From: a phage
DNA: 64,000 nucleotides
NCBI GenBank assembly: GCA_037431425.1
Contig: GCA_037431425.1_4129.1
Strand: one strand, 5' to 3'
Shown in pieces: positions 9,650-64,000 of this stretch (the stretch's first letter is position 1; the number at the start of each line of letters is the position of its first letter). The notes under the pieces were generated by a model that saw nothing but the letters and a program-made list of their open reading frames with translations, ran no database searches and was not told the DNA's origin. A program made the position numbers and the translations under genes.

Positions 9650-9833
<184 letters not shown>

Positions 9834-9987: not shown

Positions 9988-10004
9988 CAAAATAAAGGCA
10001 CACT

Positions 10005-45819: not shown

Positions 45820-45820
45820 T

Positions 45821-46183: not shown

Positions 46184-46184
46184 T

Positions 46185-46556
46185 ATGAGTTATCGTGAAG
46201 TATTTTCTATAATTTCAATTATTATGTTCAGTGCTGGGACATTGATTTGGTTATTATACTTTTTCTGTATTAATCCAGTGTATAATATGTTATGCAATAT
46301 TAAATCAAGTACTGGCTATATGACCTTTATGATCTTTATGGGATATTATTGTCTAAGCATTTTAGGTGTTTTTTTGGTTGTTATATTTGATCTAGGACCA
46401 AACAGGGACGGTCTGCAAATGTATGAGTTAATAACTATGTTTGGGTGTATGATACCAACTGCACTAATGTTTGTAGCTATTGGTGCTGGATGTATAAAGT
46501 TATACAATTATTTAAAATCCATTCATCATTACATTCATAATAAACGTATGTCCTAA
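46185..46556 (+). CDS. small membrane protein, copy B8
   Basis: Tandem paralog. Confidence 0.5.
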   Translation: MSYREVFSIISIIMFSAGTLIWLLYFFCINPVYNMLCNIKSSTGYMTFMIFMGYYCLSILGVFLVVIFDLGPNRDGLQMYELITMFGCMIPTALMFVAIGAGCIKLYNYLKSIHHYIHNKRMS

Positions 46557-48436: not shown

Positions 48437-48484
48437 AATTTCTCTCCCTCATTCATTATACTGTATTTAACCCAATTAAGAAAA

Positions 48485-48503
48485 GCCAGTATCAAGTACT
48501 GGT
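48485..48503 (-). terminator. intergenic hairpin between RCC1-like paralogs
   Basis: CCAGTA-TCAAG-TACTGG preceded by A-run on + (T-run on - strand). Confidence 0.55.
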
Positions 48504-48509
48504 ATTTTA

Positions 48510-49859: not shown

Positions 49860-49906
49860 ATTTCCCTCCTTTATTCATTATACTATATTTAATACTAAAA
49901 GAAAAA

Positions 49907-49925
49907 GCCAGTACAGAGTACTGGC
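49907..49925 (-). terminator. intergenic hairpin between RCC1-like paralogs
   Basis: GCCAGTAC-AGA-GTACTGGC; T-run on - strand. Confidence 0.6.
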
Positions 49926-49931
49926 ATTATT

Positions 49932-51083: not shown

Positions 51084-51130
51084 ATTTCCCTCCTTTATTC
51101 ATTATACTATATTTAATACTAAAAGAAAAA

Positions 51131-51150
51131 GCCAGTACTTGAGTACTGGC
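51131..51150 (-). terminator. intergenic hairpin between RCC1-like paralogs
   Basis: GCCAGTACTTGAGTACTGGC; T-run on - strand. Confidence 0.6.
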
Positions 51151-51157
51151 TTTCTTA

Positions 51158-52348: not shown

Positions 52349-52391
52349 ATCCCCTCCTTATTCATTATACTATATTTAATCAAAAATAAAA

Positions 52392-52410
52392 GCCAGTATC
52401 AAGTACTGGC
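52392..52410 (-). terminator. intergenic hairpin between RCC1-like paralogs
   Basis: GCCAGTATCAAGTACTGGC. Confidence 0.6.
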
Positions 52411-52424
52411 ATAGTTTTATAATA

Positions 52425-53531
52425 TTATTTCGGCATCGTAATTGCAGACCATGAATTTGTAGTAATTGGACCTGGTATGTACACTAAAGAACCACATGCA
52501 TAAATTTGTCTATTCCCATCATACACAACACTAAAGTTAGTACAAGTAAACAATGACGAATTTAATGGATTGTAAGTATCTAATGTTAGTGTATTCACCC
52601 ACTTATTTGAACCTAGACCACCTGACCTACCAAATGCACCAGTACTGTATATCTTACCTTCAGTTGTTGCATATATATTAACATATGAAGTTGAACTGGA
52701 TTTAGCTATTTTATGTATCTTACTATCAATAGCACTGGAGTTAAATGTAAAAGGATATATTTCTACGTTAGTTGATGAACCATTACCGAGTTGACCAGAA
52801 TACTGCAAGCCAGCGACGTATGTACCACCACCTGAATATGCTATAGTACTAGTACTGTTACCTCCCATTATTTTAACACTAGTTAAACGACTTACTAAAG
52901 TAGTGTACTGACCTTTACTAACACCTAGTGAACCATAACTACTAGTACCACATCCAATAAGGTTACCGTTGGATGTTAAGATTAATGTGTTGTTTTGTGT
53001 ACCATATATATCAGCAACTTCATTTGTACCAGTATTCAGTACTAACACAAAAGCACTCTGTGAATTAGGATATCCACCACCGAGTGAATAGTTACTGTTC
53101 ATGCCTCTTCCATAAACCTTTGTACCACTAGCATCTACGTAGTGCATCGTATCTGAACCAATTGATATCATTTTAATATTAGATATGTGTGGAAATGAAG
53201 AAGTAACATCTAAACCACCCAAGGGGATTGCAGTATTACCCGTACCTAACTGAGAAGTAACTCCGTGCATTCTGAACTCTTCTCCTTTGAGATACAGAAG
53301 ATTGTACCCACCAGCCCATGCATCAGAAACACCCTCTGCAACTAATATCCAATTATTTTTTTCCGCTGTACCAACGGCATTCAACTGCCAATATGAATTA
53401 TCTCCACATCCATATAATGTACCATCACTATATAGTACGTACAAATTATTGGTTCCACAAAATACTTTCTTGATCGTTATACCTTCTGGAGCTATATTTC
53501 CATAGGTCATTATTCTTGCAAAAGGTAACAT
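52425..53531 (-). CDS. RCC1-like repeat protein, paralog 5
   Basis: N-terminus MLPFARIMTYGNIAP; repeat GDNSYWQLN. Confidence 0.7.
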   Translation of the reverse strand: MLPFARIMTYGNIAPEGITIKKVFCGTNNLYVLYSDGTLYGCGDNSYWQLNAVGTAEKNNWILVAEGVSDAWAGGYNLLYLKGEEFRMHGVTSQLGTGNTAIPLGGLDVTSSFPHISNIKMISIGSDTMHYVDASGTKVYGRGMNSNYSLGGGYPNSQSAFVLVLNTGTNEVADIYGTQNNTLILTSNGNLIGCGTSSYGSLGVSKGQYTTLVSRLTSVKIMGGNSTSTIAYSGGGTYVAGLQYSGQLGNGSSTNVEIYPFTFNSSAIDSKIHKIAKSSSTSYVNIYATTEGKIYSTGAFGRSGGLGSNKWVNTLTLDTYNPLNSSLFTCTNFSVVYDGNRQIYACGSLVYIPGPITTNSWSAITMPK

Positions 53532-53576
53532 ATCCCCTCCTTATTCATTATACTATATTTAATACAAATAAGAAAA

Positions 53577-53595
53577 GCCAGTATCAAGTACTGGC
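53577..53595 (-). terminator. intergenic hairpin between RCC1-like paralogs
   Basis: GCCAGTATCAAGTACTGGC. Confidence 0.6.
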
Positions 53596-53601
53596 CTATA
53601 T

Positions 53602-54771
53602 TTAAACTGGCGAATCTAATATAAATTCTAAACTACTAATGCCACCATATGTGACATCTGTTCCCGTGCTATATACAAAATTACCATCAGTTATATAAGT
53701 TCGGTTATAACTACCTGCCATCTGTGACTTACTATAATCAAACCCATCAGGTACGATTGCTTTGGTATATACTAATGCATTAGTAGATGTACCAATACCT
53801 AACATACCAGCTTGTGTAGATTGATTGTAGCCGCAACAATATATACCATCTGTTGTAGCAATAACTTGGTTATAATATGAAGTATTGTTAGCAATGCTTA
53901 CTACATCACCAGGTGGCATTAGTGATGCTGTTTGTACCTCAAATGCTCTATAATCTTTGAGAGAACCATCTTTCCCATCTGCTTGTGCACCAAATATTCT
54001 TGAACCACCATTTGCGATGATAGTTTTACCAGTAGGATCAGTGCCTATTGCCATTGCCATTGAAGTACCATTATTCACATAGTACTTTATATTAATTGTA
54101 TTACTTAAGCTGGTAGGAGCACCATAATATATATTATATAACTTACTTCCTGAACTTGTAACTGCATTGACTCTTCCTGTATAAAATAACCATCCTTGGT
54201 TTGTAACATAACCGTGCATTAAATTACTTGCAAACAATTTAACAGGTAATTGATTTGCTACGGTAGGAACAGTACTTTTGACGAATCTACCAGAAACATA
54301 GTTAATTGTTGTTCCATCACCCAACTGACCATCCGACCCTACTCCAGTACTCCATATTGTTTGGTCTGATAGTAACACACTTGTAGTCTGATAACTAATG
54401 GCTATATCTAATATTGGTAATGTTAATGTATTGAATATAGGCATAGCAGATGTCCATATTGATACTCCTGACCCTTTCATACCAACAGTTGTTGAACTTC
54501 CACTGTACCATATTTCATTATTGCTTTTCTTAACAACTATCGACGTGGCTCCCATCCAAAAATCTTCAACACCAGAAGTACTAAAAGTCCATGTAGTAAC
54601 AGTATTTTTGTGACCTAAACCCAAAATACCATATGCATTATCACCACGCACATATAAATCACCACTGTTTGTTAAAACAGCAACATTATCGTTGTTAGCA
54701 AGTATTTTTTTAATATTTGGTTTAGCAGGTGCAATATTCCCGTACTTAACCATCCTCGCAAAAGGTAACAA
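53602..54771 (-). CDS. RCC1-like repeat protein, paralog 6
   Basis: N-terminus MLPFARMVKYGNIAP; repeat GDNAYGILGLGHKN. Confidence 0.7.
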   Translation of the reverse strand: MLPFARMVKYGNIAPAKPNIKKILANNDNVAVLTNSGDLYVRGDNAYGILGLGHKNTVTTWTFSTSGVEDFWMGATSIVVKKSNNEIWYSGSSTTVGMKGSGVSIWTSAMPIFNTLTLPILDIAISYQTTSVLLSDQTIWSTGVGSDGQLGDGTTINYVSGRFVKSTVPTVANQLPVKLFASNLMHGYVTNQGWLFYTGRVNAVTSSGSKLYNIYYGAPTSLSNTINIKYYVNNGTSMAMAIGTDPTGKTIIANGGSRIFGAQADGKDGSLKDYRAFEVQTASLMPPGDVVSIANNTSYYNQVIATTDGIYCCGYNQSTQAGMLGIGTSTNALVYTKAIVPDGFDYSKSQMAGSYNRTYITDGNFVYSTGTDVTYGGISSLEFILDSPV

Positions 54772-54816
54772 AATTAAATCTCCAAAATTAAAATAATTAT
54801 ATAGTATTTACAAAAA

Positions 54817-54842
54817 TACCAGTACATATTTCAGTACTGGTA
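54817..54842 (-). terminator. intergenic hairpin between RCC1-like paralogs
   Basis: TACCAGTAC-ATATTTCA-GTACTGGTA. Confidence 0.55.
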
Positions 54843-54847
54843 TATTA

Positions 54848-55969
54848 TTAAAAGGGCAACGGTAACTCAGTAAAAGAACTTACGTCCGGTAAACCATACA
54901 TTGAATTAGCATCACCACAGTAATACCACTTCGTAGAATCATGTACCACCGATAAACGCAGTGCACATAACACTTCCTGTATGTCATTAAACACCATCGG
55001 GACTAACTCATATGTATCTGCAAATGAAGATACACCACCACTCGCATGAAAAGTATTTGTCCCAGCATAAAATAACTGATTAGTGTTCTTACCCACAGCA
55101 AATGTAATCAAATTCCCATCATTCTCCCATAAAGAAGAAAACTTATCAACACTACCAGAAAGCTCTGTGTAAGTACTCGTAATGGCATTAACCGCCGCCG
55201 CATTACCCATCTGTTTATTCAAGTTCTGCCCAGCAATAAAATATCTCGTTCGTGCACTAGAATCAGTATATAATAACCCAGTGTTCGTGGTCATCATTCC
55301 AATGTCCTTAATCGTCATACCAGGCTGTGAATAACTTAGATACGAAGTTAAATTAACATTATTACCCAACGAACCGTTAGAACTCATGCCACAACGATGT
55401 AATATACCACTTGTATCAACGTAGATAGTACTAACACCACTCGTATACAACTCTTGTACATTATTCGCAATAAACACAGCAGTCGCCTTATTACTAACCC
55501 CACCAAATGATAGGTTATTATCAAATCCCTTAGCGTATAATTGATTATTAGTAGTCAATAATCCAATCGTGTAATAAGACATTTTCATATCCCTTACTGT
55601 ACTCAAATCTACTGCCCCAAATTGATACGTAACATCTGTCCATTTGAAAATCTGTGCACTACCAACACCACCCGTTTCAAACCATTTGTCACCACAGTAC
55701 AATATGCGATTATCCTTAGTAAAGATAACTGTTAACGCTCCACTACCACACGCAAACTTTACATCACTTCTAACCTTCGTCCAATCACGTACATAGGTAG
55801 TGGTGTTATTACCTATACCTAACTTGCCATAACGGTTATAACCACGCACCCATAAATCACCACTCTTAGTAATTAATAGTAATGCGTCTCCTGTACTTAT
55901 TATTCGAAATCCCGATCTAGGATCAGGTACAATATTCCCGTACTTAACCATTCTCCCAAAAGGTAACAT
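54848..55969 (-). CDS. RCC1-like repeat protein, paralog 7
   Basis: N-terminus MLPFGRMVKYGNIVP; repeat GYNRYGKLGIGNN; first gene of the minus-strand array. Confidence 0.7.
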   Translation of the reverse strand: MLPFGRMVKYGNIVPDPRSGFRIISTGDALLLITKSGDLWVRGYNRYGKLGIGNNTTTYVRDWTKVRSDVKFACGSGALTVIFTKDNRILYCGDKWFETGGVGSAQIFKWTDVTYQFGAVDLSTVRDMKMSYYTIGLLTTNNQLYAKGFDNNLSFGGVSNKATAVFIANNVQELYTSGVSTIYVDTSGILHRCGMSSNGSLGNNVNLTSYLSYSQPGMTIKDIGMMTTNTGLLYTDSSARTRYFIAGQNLNKQMGNAAAVNAITSTYTELSGSVDKFSSLWENDGNLITFAVGKNTNQLFYAGTNTFHASGGVSSFADTYELVPMVFNDIQEVLCALRLSVVHDSTKWYYCGDANSMYGLPDVSSFTELPLPF

Positions 55970-56013: not shown

Positions 56014-56042
56014 TTGACACCCTTTCAGTACTGTTGTACGAT
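56014..56042 (+). promoter_or_regulatory. sigma70-type promoter (TTGACA-N17-TACGAT) at the head of the small-ORF array
   Basis: Lies in the divergent region between the RCC1-like array and the small-ORF array; contains CAGTACTG. Confidence 0.5.
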
Positions 56043-56067
56043 AGAAGGAATATTAGGAGAACTACAC

Positions 56068-56295
56068 ATGACAAATACCCTTAAGTACTACCTCAATACT
56101 CTGCCCGACCTAGAGTACGGGAAGTTTCTCGCAGATAGTTCGTGGCTGATTGAGCTAAAAACACATAACAGCCCTGGATGCACCCTTATGATGAACAATG
56201 CTATTGATACCCTTATAGTGAGTATTTTACATAGCAATATCTACAAGGATAACAATAAACAATTAACAAAAATATTAGTACTGCTATCTCTATGA
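56068..56295 (+). CDS. small protein, first member of tandem small-ORF array
   Basis: Track ORF 56014..56295 trimmed to ATG 56068 with SD taggaga, downstream of promoter 56014..56042. Confidence 0.5.
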   Translation: MTNTLKYYLNTLPDLEYGKFLADSSWLIELKTHNSPGCTLMMNNAIDTLIVSILHSNIYKDNNKQLTKILVLLSL

Positions 56296-56495
56296 ATATC
56301 GAACAGTTCTACATCAATGCACTACCAACTAAAAGTCTTCAAGAAAGCCTACTGTATACACAAAAGAATTTTAAAAACTTCAAACGTTGCCCTAAACTAC
56401 TGAACTCGTACATGAATAATATCATAAGAAATGTTTTACAAGGAGAAGAAAGTATGCAATACTATCACATCATTATCCTTATATTGGAGTACTAA
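56292..56495 (+). CDS. small array protein (about 67 aa)
   Basis: Track ORF; ATGA junction; hydrophobic C-terminus YHIIILILEY. Confidence 0.5.
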   Translation: MNIEQFYINALPTKSLQESLLYTQKNFKNFKRCPKLLNSYMNNIIRNVLQGEESMQYYHIIILILEY

Positions 56496-56496
56496 T

Positions 56497-56706
56497 ATGA
56501 ATACCGAACATAAAGAATTCTACACCAAATACCTCAGCAACGAAGAACAATTGTTTCTAAGAAGTGTATCACCTTTACGTATAGATACACCACACGCCAG
56601 AGAATGCTTTAATAATTGTATACGTAGTACCCTAGAAGCAATCGAATATAATAACAAAAATATTATGTACTCCAGTTTAATCGGACTAATATACTTCTAT
56701 GAATAA
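56497..56706 (+). CDS. small array protein (HKEFY...LIYFYE type)
   Basis: Track ORF 56431..56706 trimmed to ATG 56497 after upstream stop; near-paralog of 59716..59925. Confidence 0.5.
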   Translation: MNTEHKEFYTKYLSNEEQLFLRSVSPLRIDTPHARECFNNCIRSTLEAIEYNNKNIMYSSLIGLIYFYE

Positions 56707-56890
56707 TCATAAAGATTTCTATTGCAGTAAACTACACAAACAATACAGAGATTCATTTCCCAATGAACCTATGGATATGAATAGTCCCTTTTATAACTTT
56801 GACTTCAGACTGGAGACACGTTATGCAATAGAACATCAATTTCCTGAAACTAAGTACTTATCTATCATGAACCTCATCTTTAAGTTCTAA
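56699..56890 (+). CDS. small array protein
   Basis: Track ORF; HKDFY N-terminal motif. Confidence 0.45.
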   Translation: MNNHKDFYCSKLHKQYRDSFPNEPMDMNSPFYNFDFRLETRYAIEHQFPETKYLSIMNLIFKF

Positions 56891-56942
56891 AAGGTGCACC
56901 AAGGACAGAGTATTTTAATATAGTAAGGCTAATTACACTACC

Positions 56943-57128
56943 ATGAATCACATAAGCTACTACTACCAACAACTATCCGACAGAGACAAGTACAGTCACA
57001 ACTCCCATGTGTGGTACTACAAACGCGGCAGTATAAGAGACAAACATCATTACTTCAGTGCTGCTATAACAGAAGTACTAACAACTAAGTACACGTACAG
57101 AGCAGTACTGAAACTTATCTCTATATAA
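56943..57128 (+). CDS. small array protein, LKLISI subfamily
   Basis: Track ORF; C-terminal YTYRAVLKLISI. Confidence 0.5.
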   Translation: MNHISYYYQQLSDRDKYSHNSHVWYYKRGSIRDKHHYFSAAITEVLTTKYTYRAVLKLISI

Positions 57129-57136
57129 GGTACTAT

Positions 57137-57322
57137 ATGAATACATTTGAGTACTATACCAATAAACTATCTATGCCTGAAAGATCTCATCTCTATGTGT
57201 GGAGAAATGCGTATAAAAACGGAAATAAACTTATACAAAGAAATTCCCTTACAGTGTGTACCAATTTAATTAACGCAGAGTACCGCACATATATTGAAGT
57301 ACTGAAACTCATCTCTATCTAA
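57137..57322 (+). CDS. small array protein, LKLISI subfamily
   Basis: Track ORF; NTFEYY N-terminus; C-terminal YIEVLKLISI. Confidence 0.5.
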   Translation: MNTFEYYTNKLSMPERSHLYVWRNAYKNGNKLIQRNSLTVCTNLINAEYRTYIEVLKLISI

Positions 57323-57330
57323 GGTACTCT

Positions 57331-57510
57331 ATGCAAGAATTCTATATCTATAATCTCCAGCACAAAGATAGATACAACTATAATCAATTCCAAAGGTACT
57401 ACACCGTCGGGAACATCAAAGATAAAAAACGATACCTACTATCATGTACTGTAGATGCACAAAACAAAAAGTACACGTACAGAGAAGTACTGAAACTAAT
57501 TTCTATTTGA
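57331..57510 (+). CDS. small array protein, LKLISI subfamily (59 aa)
   Basis: Manually found, just under the track cutoff; C-terminal YTYREVLKLISI. Confidence 0.45.
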   Translation: MQEFYIYNLQHKDRYNYNQFQRYYTVGNIKDKKRYLLSCTVDAQNKKYTYREVLKLISI

Positions 57511-57518
57511 GGTAATAT

Positions 57519-57707
57519 ATGAATACTTTTGAGTACTACTTCAATAAACTAAATTCCATAGAACAAAATATGTACAATTCATATATTAAGTACTATCAAT
57601 CATCTGCACCTGGAATTAAAAATATATCAATAAAGATTATCACTAACCGTGTACTGACATCTGAACGTTATATGTATATGGATGCACTGAAACTCATCTC
57701 TATGTAA
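57519..57707 (+). CDS. small array protein, LKLISI subfamily
   Basis: Track ORF; NTFEYY N-terminus; C-terminal ALKLISM. Confidence 0.5.
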   Translation: MNTFEYYFNKLNSIEQNMYNSYIKYYQSSAPGIKNISIKIITNRVLTSERYMYMDALKLISM

Positions 57708-57717
57708 GGAATAAACT

Positions 57718-57897
57718 ATGAACAATTTCTATATAGAACACATAACCATAAAAGACCGTTTCATGTACGACACCTTCGTGAAGTACTACAACCTCGCAAC
57801 TAACAGTACTAAAAATATCAATCTCAATAGCTGCATACACCAAGCACTAACAAAAGAAAATCCCTTCAGGGAAATCCTTGCACTTGCATCTGTATAA
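57718..57897 (+). CDS. small array protein (59 aa)
   Basis: Manually found; C-terminal FREILALASV. Confidence 0.4.
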   Translation: MNNFYIEHITIKDRFMYDTFVKYYNLATNSTKNINLNSCIHQALTKENPFREILALASV

Positions 57898-57907
57898 AGG
57901 AATTCAA

Positions 57908-58573
57908 ATGAAACTTAATCCACAAAGTAAACAATACCTTAAGCACTTTAAGTACCTCAACAGTATTCAAGCAGAATCTATTACATCTTCTTATACTTAT
58001 CACCCGAATATACTAAAGAAACGAAATAAAAAGAATAAATCCAGTACAGATCTAGTATCAAAGAACCTCAAATCGTACTTGAAGAAAAATAATATCTCTA
58101 TTCATTGTGCGAATATCTATAATACTGATTTAAAAGCATTGAGTACTAATACCAGCACAAAAACACTAAAGAATACATCTATCTATATCTATATGCACCT
58201 GGATAATATCCCGTGCACTATAATTCTATCTTTCGGGAATGTATACTTCTTCGGGAATTGTAATACCACCCATGATATCCGTACAGCACAATTCCAAATC
58301 GGAGATATGTACTGCATGGGTTCAGAAAAAATACACGATAACATGCATTTCTTCCAACAGCAACGTACAGAAGAAACTAATACAGTACTAGAATTCCTCA
58401 AAGAACTTCAAAACAAAGAATTATCTCAAGAAGAACTATTCATGTACAGCACCGTAATCAATAATCCAGAACTCTACAAAAACGCGTACAATCTAACAAA
58501 ACATGTGCAGGAACTTATTAGTACTAATAAGAAAATTCATCACCTCATGACATATATTGCAAACTATGCATAA
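57908..58573 (+). CDS. hypothetical protein (about 221 aa) embedded in the small-ORF array
   Basis: Track ORF 57878..58573 trimmed to ATG 57908 with SD aaaggaa. Confidence 0.55.
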   Translation: MKLNPQSKQYLKHFKYLNSIQAESITSSYTYHPNILKKRNKKNKSSTDLVSKNLKSYLKKNNISIHCANIYNTDLKALSTNTSTKTLKNTSIYIYMHLDNIPCTIILSFGNVYFFGNCNTTHDIRTAQFQIGDMYCMGSEKIHDNMHFFQQQRTEETNTVLEFLKELQNKELSQEELFMYSTVINNPELYKNAYNLTKHVQELISTNKKIHHLMTYIANYA

Positions 58574-58751
58574 AGAATACTACCAAAATAAACTCCCAAT
58601 GCATCTACAACACCTTGTACCAACAGAACCATTGGGTATAGAAAAAGACTACGAAAAAGACTACTTCATTAAGTGCACCAAATCCTCAATAGATATTGAG
58701 GACTATAATCGAGTACTGTATCACATCCTTTTACTAATATATAAGTACTAA
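58566..58751 (+). CDS. small array protein, KEYYQNKLPM subfamily
   Basis: Track ORF 58557..58751 (TTG) trimmed to ATG 58566; C-terminal LLLIYKY. Confidence 0.5.
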   Translation: MHKEYYQNKLPMHLQHLVPTEPLGIEKDYEKDYFIKCTKSSIDIEDYNRVLYHILLLIYKY

Positions 58752-58752
58752 T

Positions 58753-58947
58753 ATGAATAATGAATACTATAAAGAATACTACCAAAATAAACTCCCTATG
58801 TATCTACAACACCTTATACCAACAAAACCTATTGGCATAAAAGATCATGAAAAAATAATGTTCCAACAATGTTCTAAGTACATCCTAATAGACGATCACA
58901 ATCCATATATGCTGTACTATATAATAATGCTAACATTCAGGTACTAA
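58753..58947 (+). CDS. small array protein, KEYYQNKLPM subfamily
   Basis: Track ORF; close paralog of 58566..58751. Confidence 0.55.
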   Translation: MNNEYYKEYYQNKLPMYLQHLIPTKPIGIKDHEKIMFQQCSKYILIDDHNPYMLYYIIMLTFRY

Positions 58948-58948
58948 T

Positions 58949-59131
58949 ATGCACAAAGAATACTACACACAATTTCTCCCCAGTATATTTGAACACTACG
59001 CCAGATATAAAGTCCCACTGGATAACGATTTGGCAGTACTCGGATTCAATAACTGCATAGAACGCAGTATAGAAAATAGTAGTTCATATGACCAACTATA
59101 TAACACTATCCTACTTATATTCAGGTACTAA
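58949..59131 (+). CDS. small array protein
   Basis: Track ORF; HKEYY N-terminus; C-terminal LLIFRY. Confidence 0.5.
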   Translation: MHKEYYTQFLPSIFEHYARYKVPLDNDLAVLGFNNCIERSIENSSSYDQLYNTILLIFRY

Positions 59132-59132
59132 T

Positions 59133-59321
59133 ATGTTTAAAGAATACTACGCAAAATATTTCCCAATGTATCTCAGAACTAATCTATTAGATAAACCTCG
59201 CGATATCAATGCTCAAAACGATAAAGTGTACTTTATTATGTGCACTAAAGCATGTATACTAGATCATGACAGCTACCATCGAGTACTCTATCATACACTG
59301 TACCTAACATTCGTGTACTAA
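59133..59321 (+). CDS. small array protein
   Basis: Track ORF 59088..59321 trimmed to ATG 59133; FKEYY N-terminus. Confidence 0.5.
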   Translation: MFKEYYAKYFPMYLRTNLLDKPRDINAQNDKVYFIMCTKACILDHDSYHRVLYHTLYLTFVY

Positions 59322-59331
59322 AGAGAACATT

Positions 59332-59526
59332 ATGCAACACAAGTTCAAAGAATTCTACTTAAGCCGCCTGGAACTAAACTCCCAAATGCTTATACCACTA
59401 AAACCAATAGATATCAAGGATAAGAAAAATACCCAACAATTCATCTACCATACACAGTGTGCTATCTCCCCAGATTATAATACATATAAATTGTACTATA
59501 TCATCGCCCTAATACTCAGGTACTAA
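59332..59526 (+). CDS. small array protein
   Basis: Track ORF; FKEFY N-terminus; C-terminal ALILRY. Confidence 0.5.
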   Translation: MQHKFKEFYLSRLELNSQMLIPLKPIDIKDKKNTQQFIYHTQCAISPDYNTYKLYYIIALILRY

Positions 59527-59528
59527 TC

Positions 59529-59714
59529 ATGTATAAAGAATACTACACACAATTTGTTAAAGAAAACTACAAATATGCCGTCCCCATAAAACCCTTAAAT
59601 GCTAATGACCCAAATACTATATTCCTGTTTAATGACGCAATACGTACAGTACTCAATACTAAAGATGAACAAGTGCAGTACGTATTCTTACTTTTACTTA
59701 TATACAGACACTAA
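59529..59714 (+). CDS. small array protein
   Basis: Track ORF; YKEYY N-terminus; C-terminal LLLIYRH. Confidence 0.5.
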   Translation: MYKEYYTQFVKENYKYAVPIKPLNANDPNTIFLFNDAIRTVLNTKDEQVQYVFLLLLIYRH

Positions 59715-59715
59715 T

Positions 59716-59925
59716 ATGAATAAAGTACATAAAGAATTCTATTCCAGATACCTCAGCCTATCAGAACAAATGTTTATAAGATCTACACCACCATTAAGTA
59801 CTGATACTTACTTCGGTAGAGTATGCTACAATAAATGTGTACAAATGACTTTAAACGCAAACGACAATAATAACAGTACTAACCTGTACTCAGGCATCAT
59901 AGGTATACTATTTCTATATGATTAA
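59716..59925 (+). CDS. small array protein
   Basis: Track ORF 59599..59925 trimmed to ATG 59716; near-paralog of 56497..56706. Confidence 0.5.
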   Translation: MNKVHKEFYSRYLSLSEQMFIRSTPPLSTDTYFGRVCYNKCVQMTLNANDNNNSTNLYSGIIGILFLYD

Positions 59926-60100
59926 AGAATATAAAGACTTCTACATAAGAAAACTAACATTCGTCCCCGTAAGAATATACAAAGAATGCGACCCAAGATT
60001 ATACCTATGGCACTTCAATGAGTGCATAAAAGATTCTATATACCCTAAGAACTATAAAGAACAATTGTGCTCAGTACTAACACTAGTACTATCATATTAA
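59918..60100 (+). CDS. small array protein
   Basis: Track ORF; IKEYKDFY N-terminus. Confidence 0.5.
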   Translation: MIKEYKDFYIRKLTFVPVRIYKECDPRLYLWHFNECIKDSIYPKNYKEQLCSVLTLVLSY

Positions 60101-60113
60101 TAGAGATAATACT

Positions 60114-60326
60114 ATGAATAAAGAACATAAAAACTTCTATATAAGTAAACTAAAAGAAAATGAACAAGTATGGATTAGATCTATAATAGAACTGGCATTT
60201 AATAGATACGCACTGAATAGATGTACACAGATTGCTATAGACCCTTATCCCATTGAAGAGGATGAAAAGGATGTACAGTACAATCAGTACTACTATATCT
60301 TAATGCTTATATATAGACCTATATAG
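60114..60326 (+). CDS. small array protein, last member
   Basis: Track ORF; NKEHKNFY N-terminus; C-terminal LMLIYRPI. Confidence 0.5.
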   Translation: MNKEHKNFYISKLKENEQVWIRSIIELAFNRYALNRCTQIAIDPYPIEEDEKDVQYNQYYYILMLIYRPI

Positions 60327-60340
60327 GAAACTACACAGGC

Positions 60341-60426
60341 GAATTGCTAAAATTCAGCCTGCTATACGTCTGAATTGTTAAAATTCAGCCTGCTATACGT
60401 CTGAATTGTTAAAATTCAGCCTGGAC
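60341..60426. repeat. tandem direct repeat, about 29-bp unit x 2.5
   Basis: AATTG(C/T)TAAAATTCAGCCTGCTATACGTCTG repeated head-to-tail. Confidence 0.8.
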
Positions 60427-60467
60427 AAATGCGATCACCAGGATTCTCTCCAGGCTAAACACCGTAG

Positions 60468-60535
60468 TCATAAGTAATCATAAGTAATCATATATAAACA
60501 TTTATATGAGCATTTATAAGCATTTATAAGCACCG
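60468..60535. repeat. short tandem repeats
   Basis: ATAAGTAATC x2 then ATTTATAAGC x2. Confidence 0.7.
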
Positions 60536-61027
60536 TAGAATCACAGAATGATTATATATGATTCAGTACTGCCCCAAAAGTATTCAGTACTGAAGAATTA
60601 CCCCTGAATGATTCAGTACTGATATGCCACTAAGTAGGCAGAGGAAGTCTGCCGTACTTTGTAGTTTCCAAGCTCCTTTTCCATTTTGCAAATTACATCA
60701 AATGTAATCAAAAGTAATCACGTAATGATTAGTACTGAAATATTAGTTTCATCTTTTTTCAAATACCTTTTTACCCTTCGGGGTAAATGTATTTTTACCC
60801 ATTTACCTTTGGGGTAAAATCCCATTACCCCTTGAGGCTCCAGCAAAAAGTTGGAAAGTACTCCATCCTAAATCTCGATCCTAAAAATTTTGGAGTACCT
60901 ATGAAATAAAAGTTGGATCTTCGAAAGTTGAAATTTACGTTGGGACGTTTATGATTTGTGGGATATAATGATGTTTGTAGTCGGGTAGTTCTCAAGAATA
61001 TCAGTACTGAATGGTGAAAGAAAGTTA

Positions 61028-61055
61028 TTGACATTATGATTCAGTACTGTATAAT
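61028..61055 (+). promoter_or_regulatory. sigma70-type promoter (TTGACA-N16-TATAAT) in the non-coding region
   Basis: Consensus; TTCAGTACTG immediately upstream of -10; no obvious ORF downstream. Confidence 0.55.
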
Positions 61056-61383
61056 GTTCTACATAGAGAGATGAGTTGCTGCGAACAATTCATTTACTCT
61101 ACCTCCTGTCGTGAGACAGTACAGAAAAGATAGTTCCTCCTGTGGTGGTACATCTTTTTGAACCTCATATGAAAATCGTAATAACAGTACTGGTATTAAC
61201 AGAATGGTATCAGTACTGACTTTAATCTAATACATTATACCACCAGCTTGTGCTGGTGGATTCCCTCTAACAGTATTCAGTACTACATGATAGTCTTCAT
61301 CCTCCTAGGGTAACATAGTGAGGGCTATTGTGGGAGTACTGAATACTCCTTTCAAAAGATAGAATAATGGTATAGTACCGACG

Positions 61384-62000
61384 GATTTTGGGCGTAGTTA
61401 CCCTGGGTGTATTTTGGACGTAGATATGTCTAGCCCTCCAGAAGTCTGGAAGTAAAGATGGCTATCTATCTAGACGGCTAAACGGCTAGATTTCTAGATG
61501 GCTGTATGGCTAGACGTTTGGATGGCTAAACGGCTAAACGGCTAGATGGTTACACGTCTGGAAGTATAGACGGCTAAATCAAAATTTTTATTTTGTTTTT
61601 CCAATAGTTCCCCTACCGCGTGAGGATATTTTTTCCCCGCAGTATCTGGAGTTAGATTTTTCTGAATCTGGAATCATTATCTAATAAACTGGGGGCAATG
61701 TCAACCGCCTGGATGAATATTTTTAAAAAATAATCTAGTACTAAATTTTGGGCGTAACTATGCACCCGGTGGGCTTGAGTCTTTCTCGACTTGATGAAAT
61801 AATTATATCAGTACTGAAAAAATAAAGCAATACCCTAAACGCAAAAAAAATTTAATTAATTTGCTTGCTATTCTGGGCCGTACTATGGTACTATTAATTC
61901 AGTACTGAGAAAGTGCTTTTACCTGCTAGGGTGCGGGAGTGTATCCTTTTTAAATTTTATGAATTTTGGGCAGATCTCCGCACCCTGTGGGTTAGTGCCT
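61384..62000. repeat. dispersed copies of ATTTTGGGCG...CACCC(G/T)GTGGG element
   Basis: Copies near 61384, 61745, 61958, with a partial copy at 63940. Confidence 0.55.
61441..61575. repeat. iteron-like cluster of degenerate short repeats
   Basis: At least 8 copies of GGCTA(A/G/T)ACGG / ATGGCT(A/G)T units bracketed by CCAGAAGTCTGGAAGTA and CACGTCTGGAAGTAT. Confidence 0.75.
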
Positions 62001-62204
62001 TGTGTCCGGCTTATGTAGTAATTATACGCTTTTTCAGTACTGAGTCAATACCTAAAAACAAAATAATTGAAAATAATTTAACGCGTTTAAACGGCCCGTA
62101 AAGCCCTGGAATGATTAGAATGGTGCAAATGTATAGCTTAGGTGTAATATCTCGTTAGAATGCGACTGAGGCCGTTTTACGGGGTATAGGGATGATTTAG
62201 TGGA

Positions 62205-62296
62205 TTGATTCAGTACTGAATAATAGTACTCCTATATAGAAAGATAGTTCCCCTGGATGGTTGCAGTACTGAATAATAGTACTCCTATATAGAAAG
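62205..62296. repeat. direct repeat pair, about 38 bp
   Basis: CAGTACTGAATAATAGTACTCCTATATAGAAAGA occurs twice about 50 bp apart. Confidence 0.8.
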
Positions 62297-62329
62297 AAAA
62301 CTATTTTAAAAAGTATTTGTAGAAAGTAC

Positions 62330-62358
62330 TTGCACCGTACTGATAAAAGCGTATAATG
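62330..62358 (+). promoter_or_regulatory. promoter (TTGCAC-N17-TATAAT) plus conserved leader hairpin
   Basis: Followed by GAGAGCGGGAGCACTTCCCGCT stem-loop before ORF 62356. Confidence 0.6.
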
Positions 62359-62775
62359 TTTTACATCGAGAGCGGGAGCACTTCCCGCTACACATTAAGA
62401 GAGATTAAAACGATGGCGACTCAAATCAATAAAATTATTGCTAACCTGGTTAACTTCCGTGAAGAGATGAAAGGTCTTCCGGCTGAAACGGTAAAAATTC
62501 ACATTTCAGCTTATCGGGAACTTATTGCAATGTTACCGCTTAAGCGTGAACAATACGCCGCTACCGTGATGCTTGATGCGATGATCAATAAGATGATCGC
62601 CAGTGATTTAACGATGGTTTATCAGTACATGGGCGAAAATTTCGCGGTGTCTGGTAAGCCAGTACCAGGGATGGCAACTACTGAGGAATTGCACGGTTTA
62701 AATTTAAAACAAGATGCATGGGATAATATGCCTCGTTTCCTGGTATGGGCTGACAGTGGCAAAATTTACAAATAA
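62356..62775 (+). CDS. hypothetical protein (139 aa)
   Basis: Track ORF with own promoter 62330..62358 and leader hairpin; more G/C-rich codons than the rest of the window. Confidence 0.6.
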   Translation: MFYIESGSTSRYTLREIKTMATQINKIIANLVNFREEMKGLPAETVKIHISAYRELIAMLPLKREQYAATVMLDAMINKMIASDLTMVYQYMGENFAVSGKPVPGMATTEELHGLNLKQDAWDNMPRFLVWADSGKIYK

Positions 62776-62790
62776 GTTTAATAAAGTACT

Positions 62791-62819
62791 TGCCAACTAA
62801 GTTTAAAAGCGTATAATAC
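62791..62819 (+). promoter_or_regulatory. promoter (TTGCCA-N17-TATAAT)
   Basis: Same AAGCGTATAAT core as 62330 and 63496; leader hairpin GGGAAGTTTAAAAACTTCCC. Confidence 0.6.
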
Positions 62820-62896
62820 TTTACATCAGGTGCAACGGGAAGTTTAAAAACTTCCCTATAGGGGAATAGTTCCCCACTATATAAGAGGATTAAAAA

Positions 62897-63136
62897 ATGG
62901 CTAAATCAAAAATGTTCTTAGGTCACAAAAACAAAACTCATTGGAATGTAAGCCTTTGGATTAATAACGATGAATCATTATACCGGTTGGCCCTGGACTT
63001 TATTGCCGCTAATACTAATCGCAATGATGCGGCCCGTCATATGATGTTATTTTTAGAACAGACTGGACAAGATAAAACACCGGACGGATTCAAATATAGC
63101 ACTACTGCGATCCGTGCGGCGATGGTTGGAATGTAA
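62897..63136 (+). CDS. hypothetical small protein
   Basis: Track ORF with own promoter 62791..62819; SD agagga. Confidence 0.6.
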   Translation: MAKSKMFLGHKNKTHWNVSLWINNDESLYRLALDFIAANTNRNDAARHMMLFLEQTGQDKTPDGFKYSTTAIRAAMVGM

Positions 63137-63150
63137 TAGAATTTATTTAA

Positions 63151-63184
63151 AGTACTATCGCAAAAAATGATAGTACTTTATAAT
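63151..63184 (+). promoter_or_regulatory. palindromic operator-like site (AGTACTATC-N9-GATAGTACT) overlapping a -10 TATAAT
   Basis: Perfect 9-bp inverted repeat flanking a 9-bp spacer, ending at the TATAAT at 63179. Confidence 0.45.
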
Positions 63185-63221
63185 AGTGTTTTATTCATAC
63201 ACCAACGATAAGGGCAATAGC

Positions 63222-63488
63222 ATGAATATTAAGTATTTTGCGACGCGTGAACAAGCTCGGAAGGCGGCGAAAGTGGAAGGTGCAACGTTTAAAGATATGG
63301 GCATACAATCGGAACGTGGTAAACGTTGGGCCATTGTAAAGCGTAGTACAGCCAGATCATTACAGTACTGGTTAGCGGCTTTAAAAAGTCCTGCTAGTGT
63401 ATCGCGTCGAGTGGTAGAAATAAAGCTCGACCGTAAGGGGAATCGTGTTACCGTGTACCGTACTAAAAAGATAGCAGTACTTGAATAA
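63222..63488 (+). CDS. hypothetical basic protein
   Basis: Track ORF 63186..63488 starts upstream of the predicted TSS; ATG 63222 after aaggg is preferred. Confidence 0.5.
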   Translation: MNIKYFATREQARKAAKVEGATFKDMGIQSERGKRWAIVKRSTARSLQYWLAALKSPASVSRRVVEIKLDRKGNRVTVYRTKKIAVLE

Positions 63489-63495
63489 AAAGAAC

Positions 63496-63523
63496 TTGCA
63501 AACTATGTTTAATGGCGTATAAT
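63496..63523 (+). promoter_or_regulatory. promoter (TTGCAA-N16-TATAAT) plus conserved leader hairpin
   Basis: Followed by GAGAGCGGGAACACTTCCCGCC, near-identical to the leader at 62370. Confidence 0.6.
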
Positions 63524-63575
63524 GTTTTACATCGAGAGCGGGAACACTTCCCGCCTATAAACTGGAGTAATAAAA

Positions 63576-63806
63576 ATGACTAATATGTATATGACTGAAG
63601 TTAAAACCGTAAAAGATACTACCACGAATAAAACTACTTACTTACAGCGGATCTGCGGTGTATGGCAACGTATCAGCAAATCAAAGTACTATAAATTAAC
63701 ATCATATGCCAATCGTTCGGATTCATTCAGTACTGAAATAAAAGGTAATAAAGTACACCAATACGGCACTTATTATTATTATAGCCTGGACGCGATTGCA
63801 GTATAA
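63576..63806 (+). CDS. hypothetical small protein
   Basis: Track ORF with own promoter 63496..63523 and leader hairpin. Confidence 0.55.
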   Translation: MTNMYMTEVKTVKDTTTNKTTYLQRICGVWQRISKSKYYKLTSYANRSDSFSTEIKGNKVHQYGTYYYYSLDAIAV

Positions 63807-63836
63807 GTAGTTTACAAATCTTTACAATTGCCGGTA

Positions 63837-63865
63837 TTGACTTAAAATGTCAGTACTGGCATAAT
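63837..63865 (+). promoter_or_regulatory. sigma70-type promoter (TTGACT-N17-CATAAT)
   Basis: Contains CAGTACTG; near the window end. Confidence 0.45.
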
Positions 63866-64000
63866 GTATCTATTGAAACGAACAATTTGGCCCACGGGGT
63901 GCGGGAGTGTATCTATAGCAAAATTAGTTTAGTATAATTACAATTGTGCACCCGGTGGGTTAGCTGTTGTCATGGGGTATATTATGCCAGTACTTGATAA

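What the first reader, a model, noticed from the sequence alone, without database searches (positions are those of the whole stretch)
60330..62330. Roughly 2 kb non-coding region with tandem repeats, iteron-like units and clustered palindromes
No convincing ORF lies between 60327 and 62355. The region contains a 29-bp tandem repeat (60341-60426), short tandem repeats (60468-60535), a dense GGCTAAACGG-type iteron cluster bracketed by inverted CCAGAAGTCTGG/CACGTCTGG (61441-61575), dispersed ATTTTGGGCG...CACCCGGTGGG elements, a duplicated 38-bp unit (62205-62296) and many TTCAGTACTGAA sites, plus one consensus promoter (61028). This looks like an origin of replication, packaging (pac) region, genome terminus or regulatory hub.
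Basis: seen in the sequence. Interest (0 to 1): 0.75.

Follow-up and report, generated by a model that had tools for sequence, protein, structure and literature searches.

The report
Genome end of a jumbo phage
This gene-free 2 kb is where the packaged chromosome of a giant E. coli virus begins (the edge of its ~21-kb terminal repeat), followed by a conserved control leader with a strong promoter and a row of twenty 8-bp boxes that look like binding sites for the host's methionine repressor.

Summary
In detail: no conserved ORF, and all listed repeats exist (the tandem period is 31 bp, not 29). The window comes from an Asteriusvirus (PBECO4/121Q-like jumbo coliphage).

In two relatives deposited with ~21-kb direct terminal repeats (DTRs), the record starts map to window base 60633. 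[quoted passage not shown] The finding is therefore about 300 bp of variable unique DNA, the left DTR boundary, and a 1.7-kb untranslated DTR leader.

The cut-site signature (AGTACT…CTA|…AAGTC at +13) is shared by four genera. The right DTR boundary carries GCTA| on the opposite strand, which fits staggered nicking.

The "iterons" are 20 in-phase 8-bp units. The pooled consensus is AGACG[G/T]CT, the MetJ met-box. Similar arrays occur in Autographiviridae (at annotated genome ends) and in non-coding DNA of T5-like phages. Klebsiella relatives carry Fur-box arrays at the same place.

The genome-terminus reading is well supported. A replication origin is not supported. Host-repressor binding is an untested inference (about 0.4). 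The closest analogues are the untranslated injection-stop (iss) region of T5's left terminal repeat and the left-end leader of T7.

The parts
60341..60433 (.). 31-bp tandem repeat (2.7 copies) on the unique side of the junction. It is variable: most relatives align only from about window 60403, i.e. only the last copy.
   Evidence: conservation of 60330-60611 is only 0.56
60464..60532 (.). 10-bp repeats (GTAATCATAA x2.9, TAAGCATTTA x4.6). GTAATCA units recur on the other side of the cut (60704-60720). They are candidate terminase-recognition repeats (inferred).
   Evidence: copy number varies (vB_Ec-M-J has an extra unit)
60564..60621 (.). Three CAGTACTG palindromes just left of the cut. The last one abuts the conserved junction block.
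60612..60653 (+). DTR left boundary, the physical left end. The cut lies between 60632 and 60633: ...TTCAGTACTGATATGCCACTA | AGTAGGCAGAGGAAGTCTGCC. AAGTC lies at +13..+17 (60645-60649), and a 6-bp terminal hairpin lies at 60637-60653.
   Evidence: Record starts of fEgEco12 and vB_Ec-M-J map to 60633. The fEgEco12 ends were confirmed by PhageTerm and digests (PMC13070987). The same signature is found in RaK2/Muenster, CBB and Serratia BF.
60697..60727 (.). GTAATCA-type 10-bp repeats 65-95 bp inside the DTR
61028..61055 (+). Consensus sigma-70 promoter TTGACA-16-TATAAT with CAGTACTG in the spacer, 396 bp from the left end. The inferred transcription start is near 61062.
   Evidence: 12/12 match; conserved even in the divergent EJP2 and JNE01
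61060..61272 (+). Structured untranslated transcript region. It has hairpins at 61070-61094 (covarying stem), 61106-61119 (CTGTC-GTGA-GACAG), 61125-61158 and 61185-61218, and three CCTCCT motifs.
   Evidence: 52 pairs, 8 with compensatory changes, 7 sequences
61240..61259 (.). Palindrome CCACCAGC-TTGT-GCTGGTGG, which is the E. coli Chi sequence in both orientations, 608 bp from the left end. The loop is inverted (TTGT/ACAA) between relatives.
   Evidence: present in 8 of 10 phages and lost in A4 and EJP2 (A4 still keeps a hairpin)
61416..61575 (.). Array of 20 contiguous in-phase 8-bp units (AGACGGCT, AAACGGCT, AGATGGCT, ACACGTCT and others). They match the met-box AGACGTCT at 114 of 160 positions.
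   Evidence: indels between phages come in 8-bp quanta; natural E. coli operators score the same
61576..61650 (.). T-rich tract followed by the block CCAATAGTTCCCCTACCGCGTGAGG. This block follows the array in Serratia BF too, and follows the Fur-box array in Klebsiella Muenster/RaK2.
61677..61704 (-). Minus-strand promoter-like site TTGACA-17-GATAAT pointing towards the array (consensus match only)
   Evidence: 11/12 match; conservation about 0.9
61745..61776 (.). ATTTTGGGCGTA...GCACCCGGTGGGC element. Related copies lie at 61385, 61411 and 61963/61981, and outside the finding at 63942. Function unresolved.
   Evidence: conservation 0.95-0.98
61802..62045 (+). Module conserved across genera: a promoter-like site (61861-61898), then GAGAAAGTGCTTTT, then GGGTGCGG (61929-61936) pairing with CCGCACCC (61978-61985). 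In Muenster, RaK2 and Serratia BF a Fur-like box sits between the two arms.
   Evidence: 72-75% identity to Muenster 1156-1296, RaK2, K64-1
62201..62297 (.). Two 44-nt copies (93% identical, 53-bp spacing), each with CAGTACTG and AGTACT
   Evidence: family D8
62330..62412 (+). First early-gene promoter (TTGCAC-16-TATAAT, 62330-62357) and 5' hairpin GCGGGA-GCAC-TTCCCGC (62372-62388). This unit is repeated before each downstream small gene. The gene starts at 62413.
   Evidence: family D2: 62320, 62780, 63486

Best explanation
The finding is the junction between the unique right end of an Asteriusvirus jumbo-phage genome and its ~21-kb direct terminal repeat (DTR), plus the untranslated leader of that repeat.

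Shown:
- Base 60633 corresponds to the first base of the packaged chromosome in close relatives.
- The sequence around the cut is conserved in four genera.
- The leader is non-coding, yet it is more conserved than the neighbouring small genes.

Inferred:
1. In replicative concatemers the packaging nuclease nicks the top strand after ...CCACTA at 60632. It nicks the bottom strand after GCTA at the other DTR boundary, ~21 kb downstream. Displacement synthesis then duplicates the repeat. This is the staggered-nick scheme proposed for T7, recalled from memory.
2. The left end enters the cell first, because every DTR gene and promoter points away from it. Host RNA polymerase fires from the consensus promoter at 61028 and makes a structured untranslated RNA.
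3. The 20-box array, 784-943 bp from the end, is a landing pad for a host repressor of the MetJ type. I put the probability that MetJ itself binds at about 0.4. It would work at or just after DNA entry, as proposed for the DnaA boxes of the T5 injection-stop region. Possible roles are a hold or roadblock on the incoming DNA, or a sensor of host state. Titration of the repressor is the main alternative.

The confidence of 0.8 applies to the identification as the DTR boundary plus untranslated leader, not to the inferred steps.
For: Terminus:
- fEgEco12 has 20,993-bp DTRs confirmed by PhageTerm and restriction digests (PMC13070987).
- Its record and that of vB_Ec-M-J (annotated 21,525-bp DTR) both begin AGTAGGCAGAGGAAGTCTGCC, which is window 60633.
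- BF17, CRJP21, ELP-22 and E9.1 have the array at the same ~750-bp offset from their record start.

Cut-site signature:
- Left of the cut, the alignment degenerates into indels (conservation 0.56). The junction block scores 0.85 and the leader 0.85, against 0.71 for the adjacent coding DNA.
- The left-boundary signature is AGTACT, then N6-13, then C(A/G)CTA |, with AAGTC at +13-17. It is shared by the window, RaK2/Muenster (end from PhageTerm), CBB (end from read depth) and Serratia BF.
- Right DTR boundaries of fEgEco12, vB_Ec-M-J, Muenster and CBB all read GCTA|AG on the bottom strand.

Non-coding status: the ORFs are broken in relatives.

Promoter and RNA.

Array:
- In the 64-kb window, four tandem 8-mers scoring at least 20/32 against AGACGTCT occur only in the array. 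Shuffles reach at most 21.
- The same scan on E. coli metJ-metBL-metF picks only the known operators, which score 22-24 against up to 25 for the phage array.
- The pooled consensus of 81 units from four phages is AGACG[G/T]CT.
- MetJ binds tandem 8-bp AGACGTCT boxes (PMC4239095, PMC3413123).
- Such arrays also occur in CBB, XbC2 and Serratia BF (about 650-810 bp from the record start or end), in Autographiviridae (PGT2 at 46-117 of its record; NNA-G4 at the first bases of its annotated LTR) and in non-coding DNA of Demerecviridae (AhSzw-1, Pontus).
- Hosts of the listed hits fall in orders reported to have MetJ regulons, with one exception (XbC2).
- No phage in the collection encodes a MetJ homologue.
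- Klebsiella relatives carry Fur-box arrays at the same position: 12 strand-hits against 0.22 expected.
- The annotated T5 iss region has Fur-like and DnaA boxes.
Against: Terminus:
- No reads from this phage were available, so the terminus is transferred by homology.
- Nothing here shows which end enters first, or the polarity of the nicks.

MetJ reading:
- Half of the window's units have G at box position 6 (10 of 20), against 1 of 12 natural E. coli boxes. This bias could mean the true binder is a different protein with related specificity.
- The arrays are 4-10 times longer than any natural operator and do not overlap a promoter.
- Xanthomonas phage XbC2 keeps a 16-unit array although Xanthomonadales are not among the listed MetJ-bearing groups.
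- BLAST of the array against E. coli genomes found nothing.
- I thought of MetJ from memory. The match is to one candidate consensus, not the result of a blind screen of all regulators.
Confidence: 0.8

Rival explanations
1. Replication origin: the 8-bp array acts as iterons for a phage initiator, and the adjacent T-rich tract acts as the unwinding element.
For: Cumulative GC skew has a local minimum at 60-61 kb. There is a repeat array next to a 25-bp T-rich tract (61576-61600). A strong promoter lies upstream and could prime an R-loop as at T4 origins (established T4 knowledge, from memory).
Against: The units are contiguous 8-mers, not 17-22-bp spaced iterons. There are no DnaA boxes or IHF sites in 60330-62355. 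The same array type occurs in T7-like, T5-like and jumbo phages with different replication machinery. Klebsiella relatives replace it with Fur-like boxes. The skew change coincides with a change in gene content and orientation.
Confidence: 0.1
2. Repressor decoy: the array, two copies per genome and amplified by replication, titrates host MetJ (Fur in Klebsiella phages). This would derepress methionine/SAM (or iron-uptake) genes for the phage's benefit. The position near the end would then be incidental.
For: There are twenty boxes per copy, and they score like authentic operators. Fur-box arrays occupy the same place in RaK2 and Muenster. Multicopy Fur boxes are known to titrate Fur (the FURTA assay, from memory).
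Against: Arrays sit at or near annotated or deposited ends in jumbo phages and Autographiviridae. A pure decoy does not require that. No expression data are available.
Confidence: 0.2
3. The array is bound by a phage protein, for example a ribbon-helix-helix protein or a terminase small subunit. It would serve in concatemer processing or packaging, like the short repeats that flank the T7 terminal repeat.
For: The array is close to the cut site in all lineages, and directly at the LTR start in NNA-G4. The systematic G at box position 6 differs from natural met boxes. T7 has short repeats next to its terminal repeat (from memory).
Against: The same consensus occurs in three families that share no obvious specific DNA-binding protein. 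No MetJ homologue is found in any phage record. In Klebsiella relatives the array is replaced by boxes matching a different host regulator.
Confidence: 0.2
4. Headful pac site: packaging starts here and ends are imprecise, as in P22 or SPP1.
For: Repeats cluster around a cleavage point.
Against: Both DTR boundaries are at fixed, conserved sequences in independently sequenced relatives. Restriction digests of fEgEco12 fit a non-permuted linear genome.
Confidence: 0.02
5. Cluster of small regulatory RNA genes: the conserved blocks are sRNAs (with CCUCCU anti-Shine-Dalgarno motifs) and the DNA repeats are secondary.
For: There is a conserved consensus promoter, and the downstream hairpins show compensatory changes. 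Three CCTCCT motifs are present. A promoter-plus-inverted-repeat module is conserved across genera.
Against: No Rfam match at E<=1. Only 7 sequences were used and covariation is modest. This reading does not explain the 8-bp array or the terminus. It is compatible with, rather than alternative to, the main explanation.
Confidence: 0.3

Closest known systems
Untranslated region / injection stop signal (iss) of the phage T5 left terminal repeat
   Same: It is a large gene-free stretch inside a long direct terminal repeat, crowded with direct repeats, inverted repeats and palindromes, and it carries clustered binding sites for a host DNA-binding protein (Davison preprint 10.1101/866236; T5 annotation). 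T5-like Aeromonas and Vibrio phages carry the same met-box-type arrays next to perfect DnaA boxes. The T5 iss also holds Fur-like boxes like those of the Klebsiella jumbo phages.
   Different: The T5 iss lies at the inner (distal) end of the repeat, ~9-10 kb from the end. Here the region starts at the end itself. There are no DnaA boxes here. T5 itself has no met-box array (maximum score 19). Two-step transfer has not been shown for this group.
Left end of phage T7 (terminal repeat, short repeats, early promoters A1-A3, untranslated ~900 bp)
   Same: It has a fixed end and a gene-free leader with short repeats. Strong host-polymerase promoters lie a few hundred bp from the end and point inward; here the promoter is at +396 (from memory for T7; for this phage).
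   Different: The repeat is 21 kb rather than 160 bp. The leader lies inside the repeat. The repeats are an 8-bp phased array with a met-box consensus. The virus is a T4-like jumbo myovirus.
E. coli MetJ operators (metA, metF, metJ/metB)
   Same: They are tandem contiguous 8-bp boxes approximating AGACGTCT, with a TA step at the junctions. The per-box match is equal (71% here, 69-75% in natural operators). Individual stretches are nearly identical, e.g. metF GGACGTCTAAACGGATAGATG against the phage fEgEco12's GGACGGCTAAACGGCTAGATG.
   Different: There are 20 boxes instead of 2-5. The array does not overlap a promoter of a methionine gene. G is frequent at position 6. Binding has not been tested.
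Published DTRs of Rak2-like jumbo phages (CBB 22,456 bp; Muenster 20,030 bp; fEgEco12 20,993 bp)
   Same: It is the same genome architecture, and the same boundary by homology.
   Different: In the passages I searched in the CBB and fEgEco12 papers, I found no description of the boundary sequence, the shared cut-site motif or the leader elements.

Membership tests
Fixed genome end / boundary of a long direct terminal repeat | The position coincides with termini determined in close relatives | tested here: met
   Record starts of fEgEco12 (PhageTerm and digests) and vB_Ec-M-J map to 60633
Fixed genome end / boundary of a long direct terminal repeat | The cut-site sequence is conserved in related genera, and both repeat boundaries are fixed | tested here: met
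   CTA| with AAGTC at +13-17 in four genera; GCTA|AG on the opposite strand at right boundaries
Fixed genome end / boundary of a long direct terminal repeat | Read-start pile-up and doubled coverage in this phage's own sequencing data | not testable with these tools
   No reads available
T5-type injection stop region | Large untranslated, repeat- and palindrome-rich region inside the terminal repeat | tested here: met
   T5 description
T5-type injection stop region | Cluster of DnaA boxes | tested here: not met
   No TTATCCACA with up to 1 mismatch in 60330-62355
T5-type injection stop region | Located at the distal end of the first-transferred DNA; two-step transfer | tested here: not met
   The region starts at the end itself. 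The transfer mode is not testable here.
MetJ operator | Two or more contiguous 8-bp boxes approximating AGACGTCT | tested here: met
   20 boxes, 114/160 matches, unique in the 64-kb window; the control scan finds the real operators
MetJ operator | Base preferences like natural boxes at every position | tested here: inconclusive
   The profile agrees except at position 6: G in 10 of 20 units against 1 of 12 natural boxes
MetJ operator | SAM-dependent binding by MetJ | not testable with these tools
   Needs EMSA, footprinting or ChIP
Iteron-type replication origin | Spaced iterons of about 17-22 bp, DnaA/IHF sites, and an adjacent initiator gene | tested here: not met
   Contiguous 8-mers; no DnaA/IHF consensus; the flanking genes are short and annotated only as hypothetical proteins
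Headful pac site | One fixed start, imprecise downstream ends, permuted genomes | tested here: not met
   Both boundaries are fixed in relatives; digests fit a linear non-permuted map
Chi site | Exact GCTGGTGG, oriented to be met by RecBCD entering from the nearby end | tested here: met
   CCACCAGC on the top strand at 61240 and GCTGGTGG at 61252. Present in only 8 of 10 relatives. Function not tested.

The most novel reading that the evidence does not exclude
Phages with direct terminal repeats (DTRs) from three unrelated families carry long arrays of binding sites for host regulators in non-coding DNA. The families are Rak2-like jumbo myoviruses, T5-like Demerecviridae and several Autographiviridae. 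The sites are MetJ-type boxes, swapped for Fur boxes in Klebsiella jumbo phages, and joined by DnaA boxes in T5-like phages. In the jumbo phages and Autographiviridae examined, the arrays lie at or near the annotated or deposited genome ends. The host proteins would be used as pre-existing hardware that grips, stalls or gates the incoming chromosome, or reads out host SAM or iron status, before any phage protein exists.
Probability: 0.3. Interest if true: 0.8.

Novelty: new variant of a known kind. Interest (0 to 1): 0.62.

Why it matters
It pins the physical start of the chromosome for a whole group of therapeutic-candidate jumbo coliphages, most of whose database records are opened arbitrarily.

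It gives a cut-site signature (…CTA| on opposite strands at the two repeat boundaries). With this, ends could be predicted from sequence alone, and a staggered-nick mechanism for making 21-kb repeats becomes testable.

It also suggests that the 'complicated' untranslated regions in terminal repeats, of which the T5 injection-stop signal is the only studied case, share a logic: arrays of sites for host DNA-binding proteins. That would turn an old open question, what stops or gates phage DNA entry, into simple experiments with metJ, fur and dnaA hosts.

Tried and rejected
- Rfam at gathering threshold (whole window) and at E<=1 (60000-64000) gave only tRNAs elsewhere.
- BLAST of the array against 5,426 E. 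coli genomes found no match. The array is therefore not copied from a host operator.
- Consensus scans for DnaA, IHF, LexA and Fur found none in the leader.
- Small ORFs in the leader were rejected, including those annotated in some records. They are broken in most relatives and annotated inconsistently.
- A phage-encoded MetJ was sought by tblastn. It found only bacterial or contaminant records.
- The total count of promoter-like hits is not above shuffles, so only conserved sites were retained.
- Chi as an essential element is weakened by its loss in A4 and EJP2, although A4 keeps a hairpin.
- Literature searches for AGTACT plus jumbo phage promoters, and for MetJ plus phage terminal repeats or infection, returned nothing relevant.
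- I did not resolve the ATTTTGGGCG / GCACCCNGTGGG elements or the role of CAGTACTG.
Full report
**1. What the window is**

The 2-kb stretch matches 43 phage records at 85-95% identity. Nearly all are Asteriusvirus jumbo coliphages such as PBECO4, 121Q, G17, phAPEC6 and fEgEco12. More sensitive BLAST reaches 78 records. In most records the stretch carries no annotation. Where 'hypothetical proteins' are annotated, they differ from record to record.

**2. Checking the observation**

- The tandem repeat at 60341-60423 has a period of 31 bp, not 29.
- The 'iteron cluster' is a strictly 8-bp-phased array that runs from 61416 to 61575.
- The duplicated unit is 44 nt with 53-bp spacing.
- CAGTACTG occurs 43 times in the window against 0.72 expected, and 12 of the 43 lie here. 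AGTACT (184 against 19 expected) and CAGTACTG are genome-wide motifs. Several copies sit in the spacer of a promoter class TTGAC-N-TTCAGTACTG-TATAAT.
- The promoter at 61028 matches the consensus 12/12.
- The region is non-coding. All ORFs of 32 aa or more are broken by stops or frameshifts in most of nine relatives, despite ~85-90% nucleotide identity. The first downstream gene really starts at 62413.

**3. The decisive result: a genome end lies inside the finding**

The fEgEco12 paper reports a linear 374,733-bp genome with 20,993-bp direct terminal repeats (DTRs). These were found by PhageTerm and confirmed by restriction digests (PMC13070987). That record, and the record of vB_Ec-M-J (annotated 21,525-bp DTR), begin with the identical sequence AGTAGGCAGAGGAAGTCTGCCGTACTTTGTAG. 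This sequence is window 60633. Four further records that include a DTR have the array at the same ~750-bp offset from their first base.

The window therefore shows the concatemer-junction arrangement: unique right end, then the cut, then the DTR. The finding consists of ~300 bp of unique DNA, the cut site, and the first 1.7 kb of the DTR.

Conservation changes at the boundary. It is 0.56 on the unique side (mostly indels), 0.85 for the 21 bp just left of the cut, and 0.85 for the leader. The neighbouring small genes score 0.71.

**4. A cut-site signature shared by four genera**

Junction sequences (record starts; RaK2):
- window: CAGTACTGATATGCCACTA|AGTAGGCAGAGGAAGTCTGCC
- RaK2, at the end PhageTerm found for Muenster: AAGTACTGATATGCCACTA|AGTCCGTTTATAAAGTCGCACCC
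- CBB: CAGTACTGTTGACCCCTTCCGCTA|TATCCGTTCCTGAAGTCGAATG
- Serratia BF: CAGTACTACCCCCTGCCGCTA|TATCTTCTCCTGAAGTCGCATAG

In all four the cut follows CTA, an AGTACT lies 6-13 bp upstream, and AAGTC occupies +13 to +17.

The right DTR boundaries of fEgEco12, vB_Ec-M-J, Muenster and CBB all read GCTA|AG on the bottom strand. The same short motif thus faces into the repeat from both sides, on opposite strands.

From this I infer staggered nicks ~21 kb apart, followed by displacement synthesis. That is the scheme long proposed for T7, which I cite from memory. Only the sequence pattern is shown here; the mechanism is inferred.

GTAATCA-type 10-bp repeats lie on both sides of the cut (60474-60490 and 60704-60720) and vary in copy number. 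They are candidates for recognition repeats, which is also an inference.

**5. The leader**

*Promoter and RNA.* The consensus promoter lies 396 bp from the end and is conserved even in the divergent EJP2 and JNE01. CAGTACTG is invariant in its spacer. Downstream hairpins show compensatory changes: 8 of 52 predicted pairs, from 7 sequences. The second hairpin has a GTGA loop and is nearly invariant. Three CCTCCT motifs follow. Rfam has nothing at E<=1.

*Chi palindrome.* At 61240-61259 there is a palindrome made of the E. coli Chi octamer in both orientations. The top-strand CCACCAGC is the orientation a RecBCD enzyme entering at the left end would recognise. The palindrome is present in 8 of 10 phages, and its loop is inverted in some. 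A4 and EJP2 lack Chi here, so I treat this as a lead only.

*Early genes.* From 62330 onward, each small early gene has its own promoter plus a 5' hairpin unit.

**6. The '8-bp iterons'**

The array has twenty contiguous in-phase units. They match the palindrome AGACGTCT at 114 of 160 positions. [quoted passage not shown]

Controls:
- In the whole 64-kb window, four tandem 8-mers scoring at least 20/32 occur only in the array.
- Shuffles of the region reach at most 21.
- The same scan on 5.2 kb of E. coli K-12 (metJ-metBL-metF) picks only the two known operators, at 22-24. The phage array reaches 25.
- Natural operators read TTACATCT GGACGTCT AAACGGAT AGATGTGC (metF) and AGCTATCT GGATGTCT AAACGTAT (metA). 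These are strikingly like the phage units.

Comparison across phages:
- Pooling 81 units from this phage, EJP2, Serratia BF and XbC2 gives the consensus AGACG[G/T]CT.
- Between Asteriusviruses the array changes by 8-bp quanta while keeping the consensus.
- By my estimate, the chance that an arbitrary 8-bp repeat consensus falls within one mismatch of this one palindrome, in any phase, is about 0.003.

Caveats:
- G replaces T at position 6 in half of the units, against 1 of 12 natural boxes.
- The array overlaps no promoter.
- BLAST against E. coli genomes finds nothing.
- I tested one remembered candidate, not all regulators.

**7. The array is a cross-family feature, often at genome ends**

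Array-like sequences occur at the following places.
- About 650-810 bp from the start of the Serratia BF, Erwinia SNUABM, CBB (inside its annotated 'redundant repeat') and XbC2 records.
- At bases 46-117 of the Autographiviridae phage PGT2.
- At the very start of the annotated 256-bp long terminal repeat of Klebsiella phage NNA-G4.
- In gene-free regions of the T5-like phages AhSzw-1 (16 units) and Vibrio Pontus (17 units), next to perfect DnaA boxes.

Hosts of the listed hits are Enterobacterales, Vibrio or Aeromonas. These orders are reported to have MetJ regulons. The Xanthomonas label of XbC2 is the exception. No phage record encodes a MetJ homologue.

At the position of the array, the Klebsiella jumbo phages Muenster and RaK2 instead carry repeated GATAATGATTCTCATT-type sequences. 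These give 12 strand-hits to the Fur-box consensus at 5 or fewer mismatches, against 0.22 expected. A similar box sits between the GGGTGC/GCACCC arms in Muenster, RaK2 and Serratia BF.

The annotated injection-stop region of T5 contains Fur-like boxes (9653-9700) as well as DnaA boxes, but no met-box array. The preprint that describes the T5 region and proposes that DnaA stops injection does not mention Fur or MetJ.

**8. Interpretation**

*Secure.* This is the left DTR boundary plus the untranslated DTR leader of an Asteriusvirus. It is not a headful pac site, and nothing specifically supports a replication origin.

*Likely but inferred.* The left end enters first, the promoter at 61028 is among the first to fire, and the ends are made by motif-directed staggered nicks.

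*Open.* I estimate about 0.4 that the array binds host MetJ, and about 0.2 each that it binds a phage protein or works chiefly as a repressor decoy. Whether it gates DNA entry as proposed for the T5 iss is also open.

**9. Novelty**

The DTRs of this group are published. In the library I could search, I found no description of the following:
- the base-level cut-site signature;
- its inverted copy at the other boundary;
- the met-box-type arrays shared across phage families;
- the swap to Fur boxes in Klebsiella relatives.

I classify the finding as a new variant of a known kind, namely the terminal-repeat control region.

Noticed in passing
window 1-64000 (e.g. 7267, 7647, 24153, 61042, 63851): AGTACT is about 10-fold over-represented (184 against 19 expected) and CAGTACTG about 60-fold (43 against 0.72). 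A subset forms a promoter class TTGAC-N-TTCAGTACTG-TATAAT, and AAAGTACTTGAC/TTGCA forms the -35 side of early promoters. This also holds in Serratia BF and Klebsiella Muenster. The binder or role of the palindrome is unknown.
   Followed up: partly
window 61240-61259: A palindrome made of the E. coli Chi octamer in both orientations lies 608 bp from the genome end. Its 4-nt loop is inverted (TTGT/ACAA) between relatives. EJP2 and JNE01 have another GCTGGTGG at the position aligned to ~61140. It may protect against RecBCD.
   Followed up: partly
L010 (Muenster) 787-905, 1073-1097, 1306-1324; L025 (RaK2) 1299-1418, 1585-1609, 1817-1835; L028 (T5) 9653-9718; L008 (Serratia BF) 1034-1052: Fur-box-like sequences (GATAATGAGAATCATT type) are clustered in the DTR leaders of Klebsiella jumbo phages, at the place where E. 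coli and Serratia phages have the met-box array. They also occur inside the annotated T5 injection-stop signal.
   Followed up: partly
L006 (fEgEco12) around 20993; L007, L029, L030: The right DTR boundary in three genera reads GCTA|AG on the bottom strand. This is the same core as the left cut on the top strand. It lies outside the window, ~21 kb downstream of 60633.
   Followed up: yes
window 56014-60326: About 20 consecutive small plus-strand ORFs (59-93 aa) fill this stretch. At least two neighbours share an obviously similar N-terminus (MIKEYKDFYIRKL / MNKEHKNFYISKL), which suggests a paralogous family. The region has strongly negative GC skew (-0.2 to -0.28) and positive AT skew although the ORFs are on the plus strand, unlike other plus-strand genes of the window.
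   Followed up: no
window 47291-55969 (minus strand) and 43776-46556 (plus strand): There are seven tandem minus-strand genes of 368-449 aa. In fEgEco12 and Serratia BF the genes just upstream of the terminus are annotated as RCC1 / 'chromosome condensation regulator' and Ig-domain proteins. There are also eight tandem plus-strand ORFs of 104-123 aa. Both sets look like paralogue arrays next to the genome end.
   Followed up: no
window 62320-62388, 62780-62848, 63486-63554: A repeated unit of promoter plus 5' stem-loop (GCGGGA-GCAC-TTCCCGC) stands before each small early gene of the DTR. It suggests a common post-transcriptional signal, such as processing or stability.
   Followed up: no
window 61929-61985 and 63893-63951; L008 970-1080; L010 1280-1345: A conserved long-range inverted repeat GGGTGC(GG)...(CC)GCACCC is followed by a CACCCNGTGGG mini-palindrome. 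It is present twice in the window and also in Serratia and Klebsiella phages. A GCACCCAGTGGGC copy also sits 17 bp from the Muenster genome end. Function unknown.
   Followed up: partly
window 6153-9988: Cluster of six tRNA genes (Ser x2, Arg, Met, Asn, Thr).
   Followed up: no
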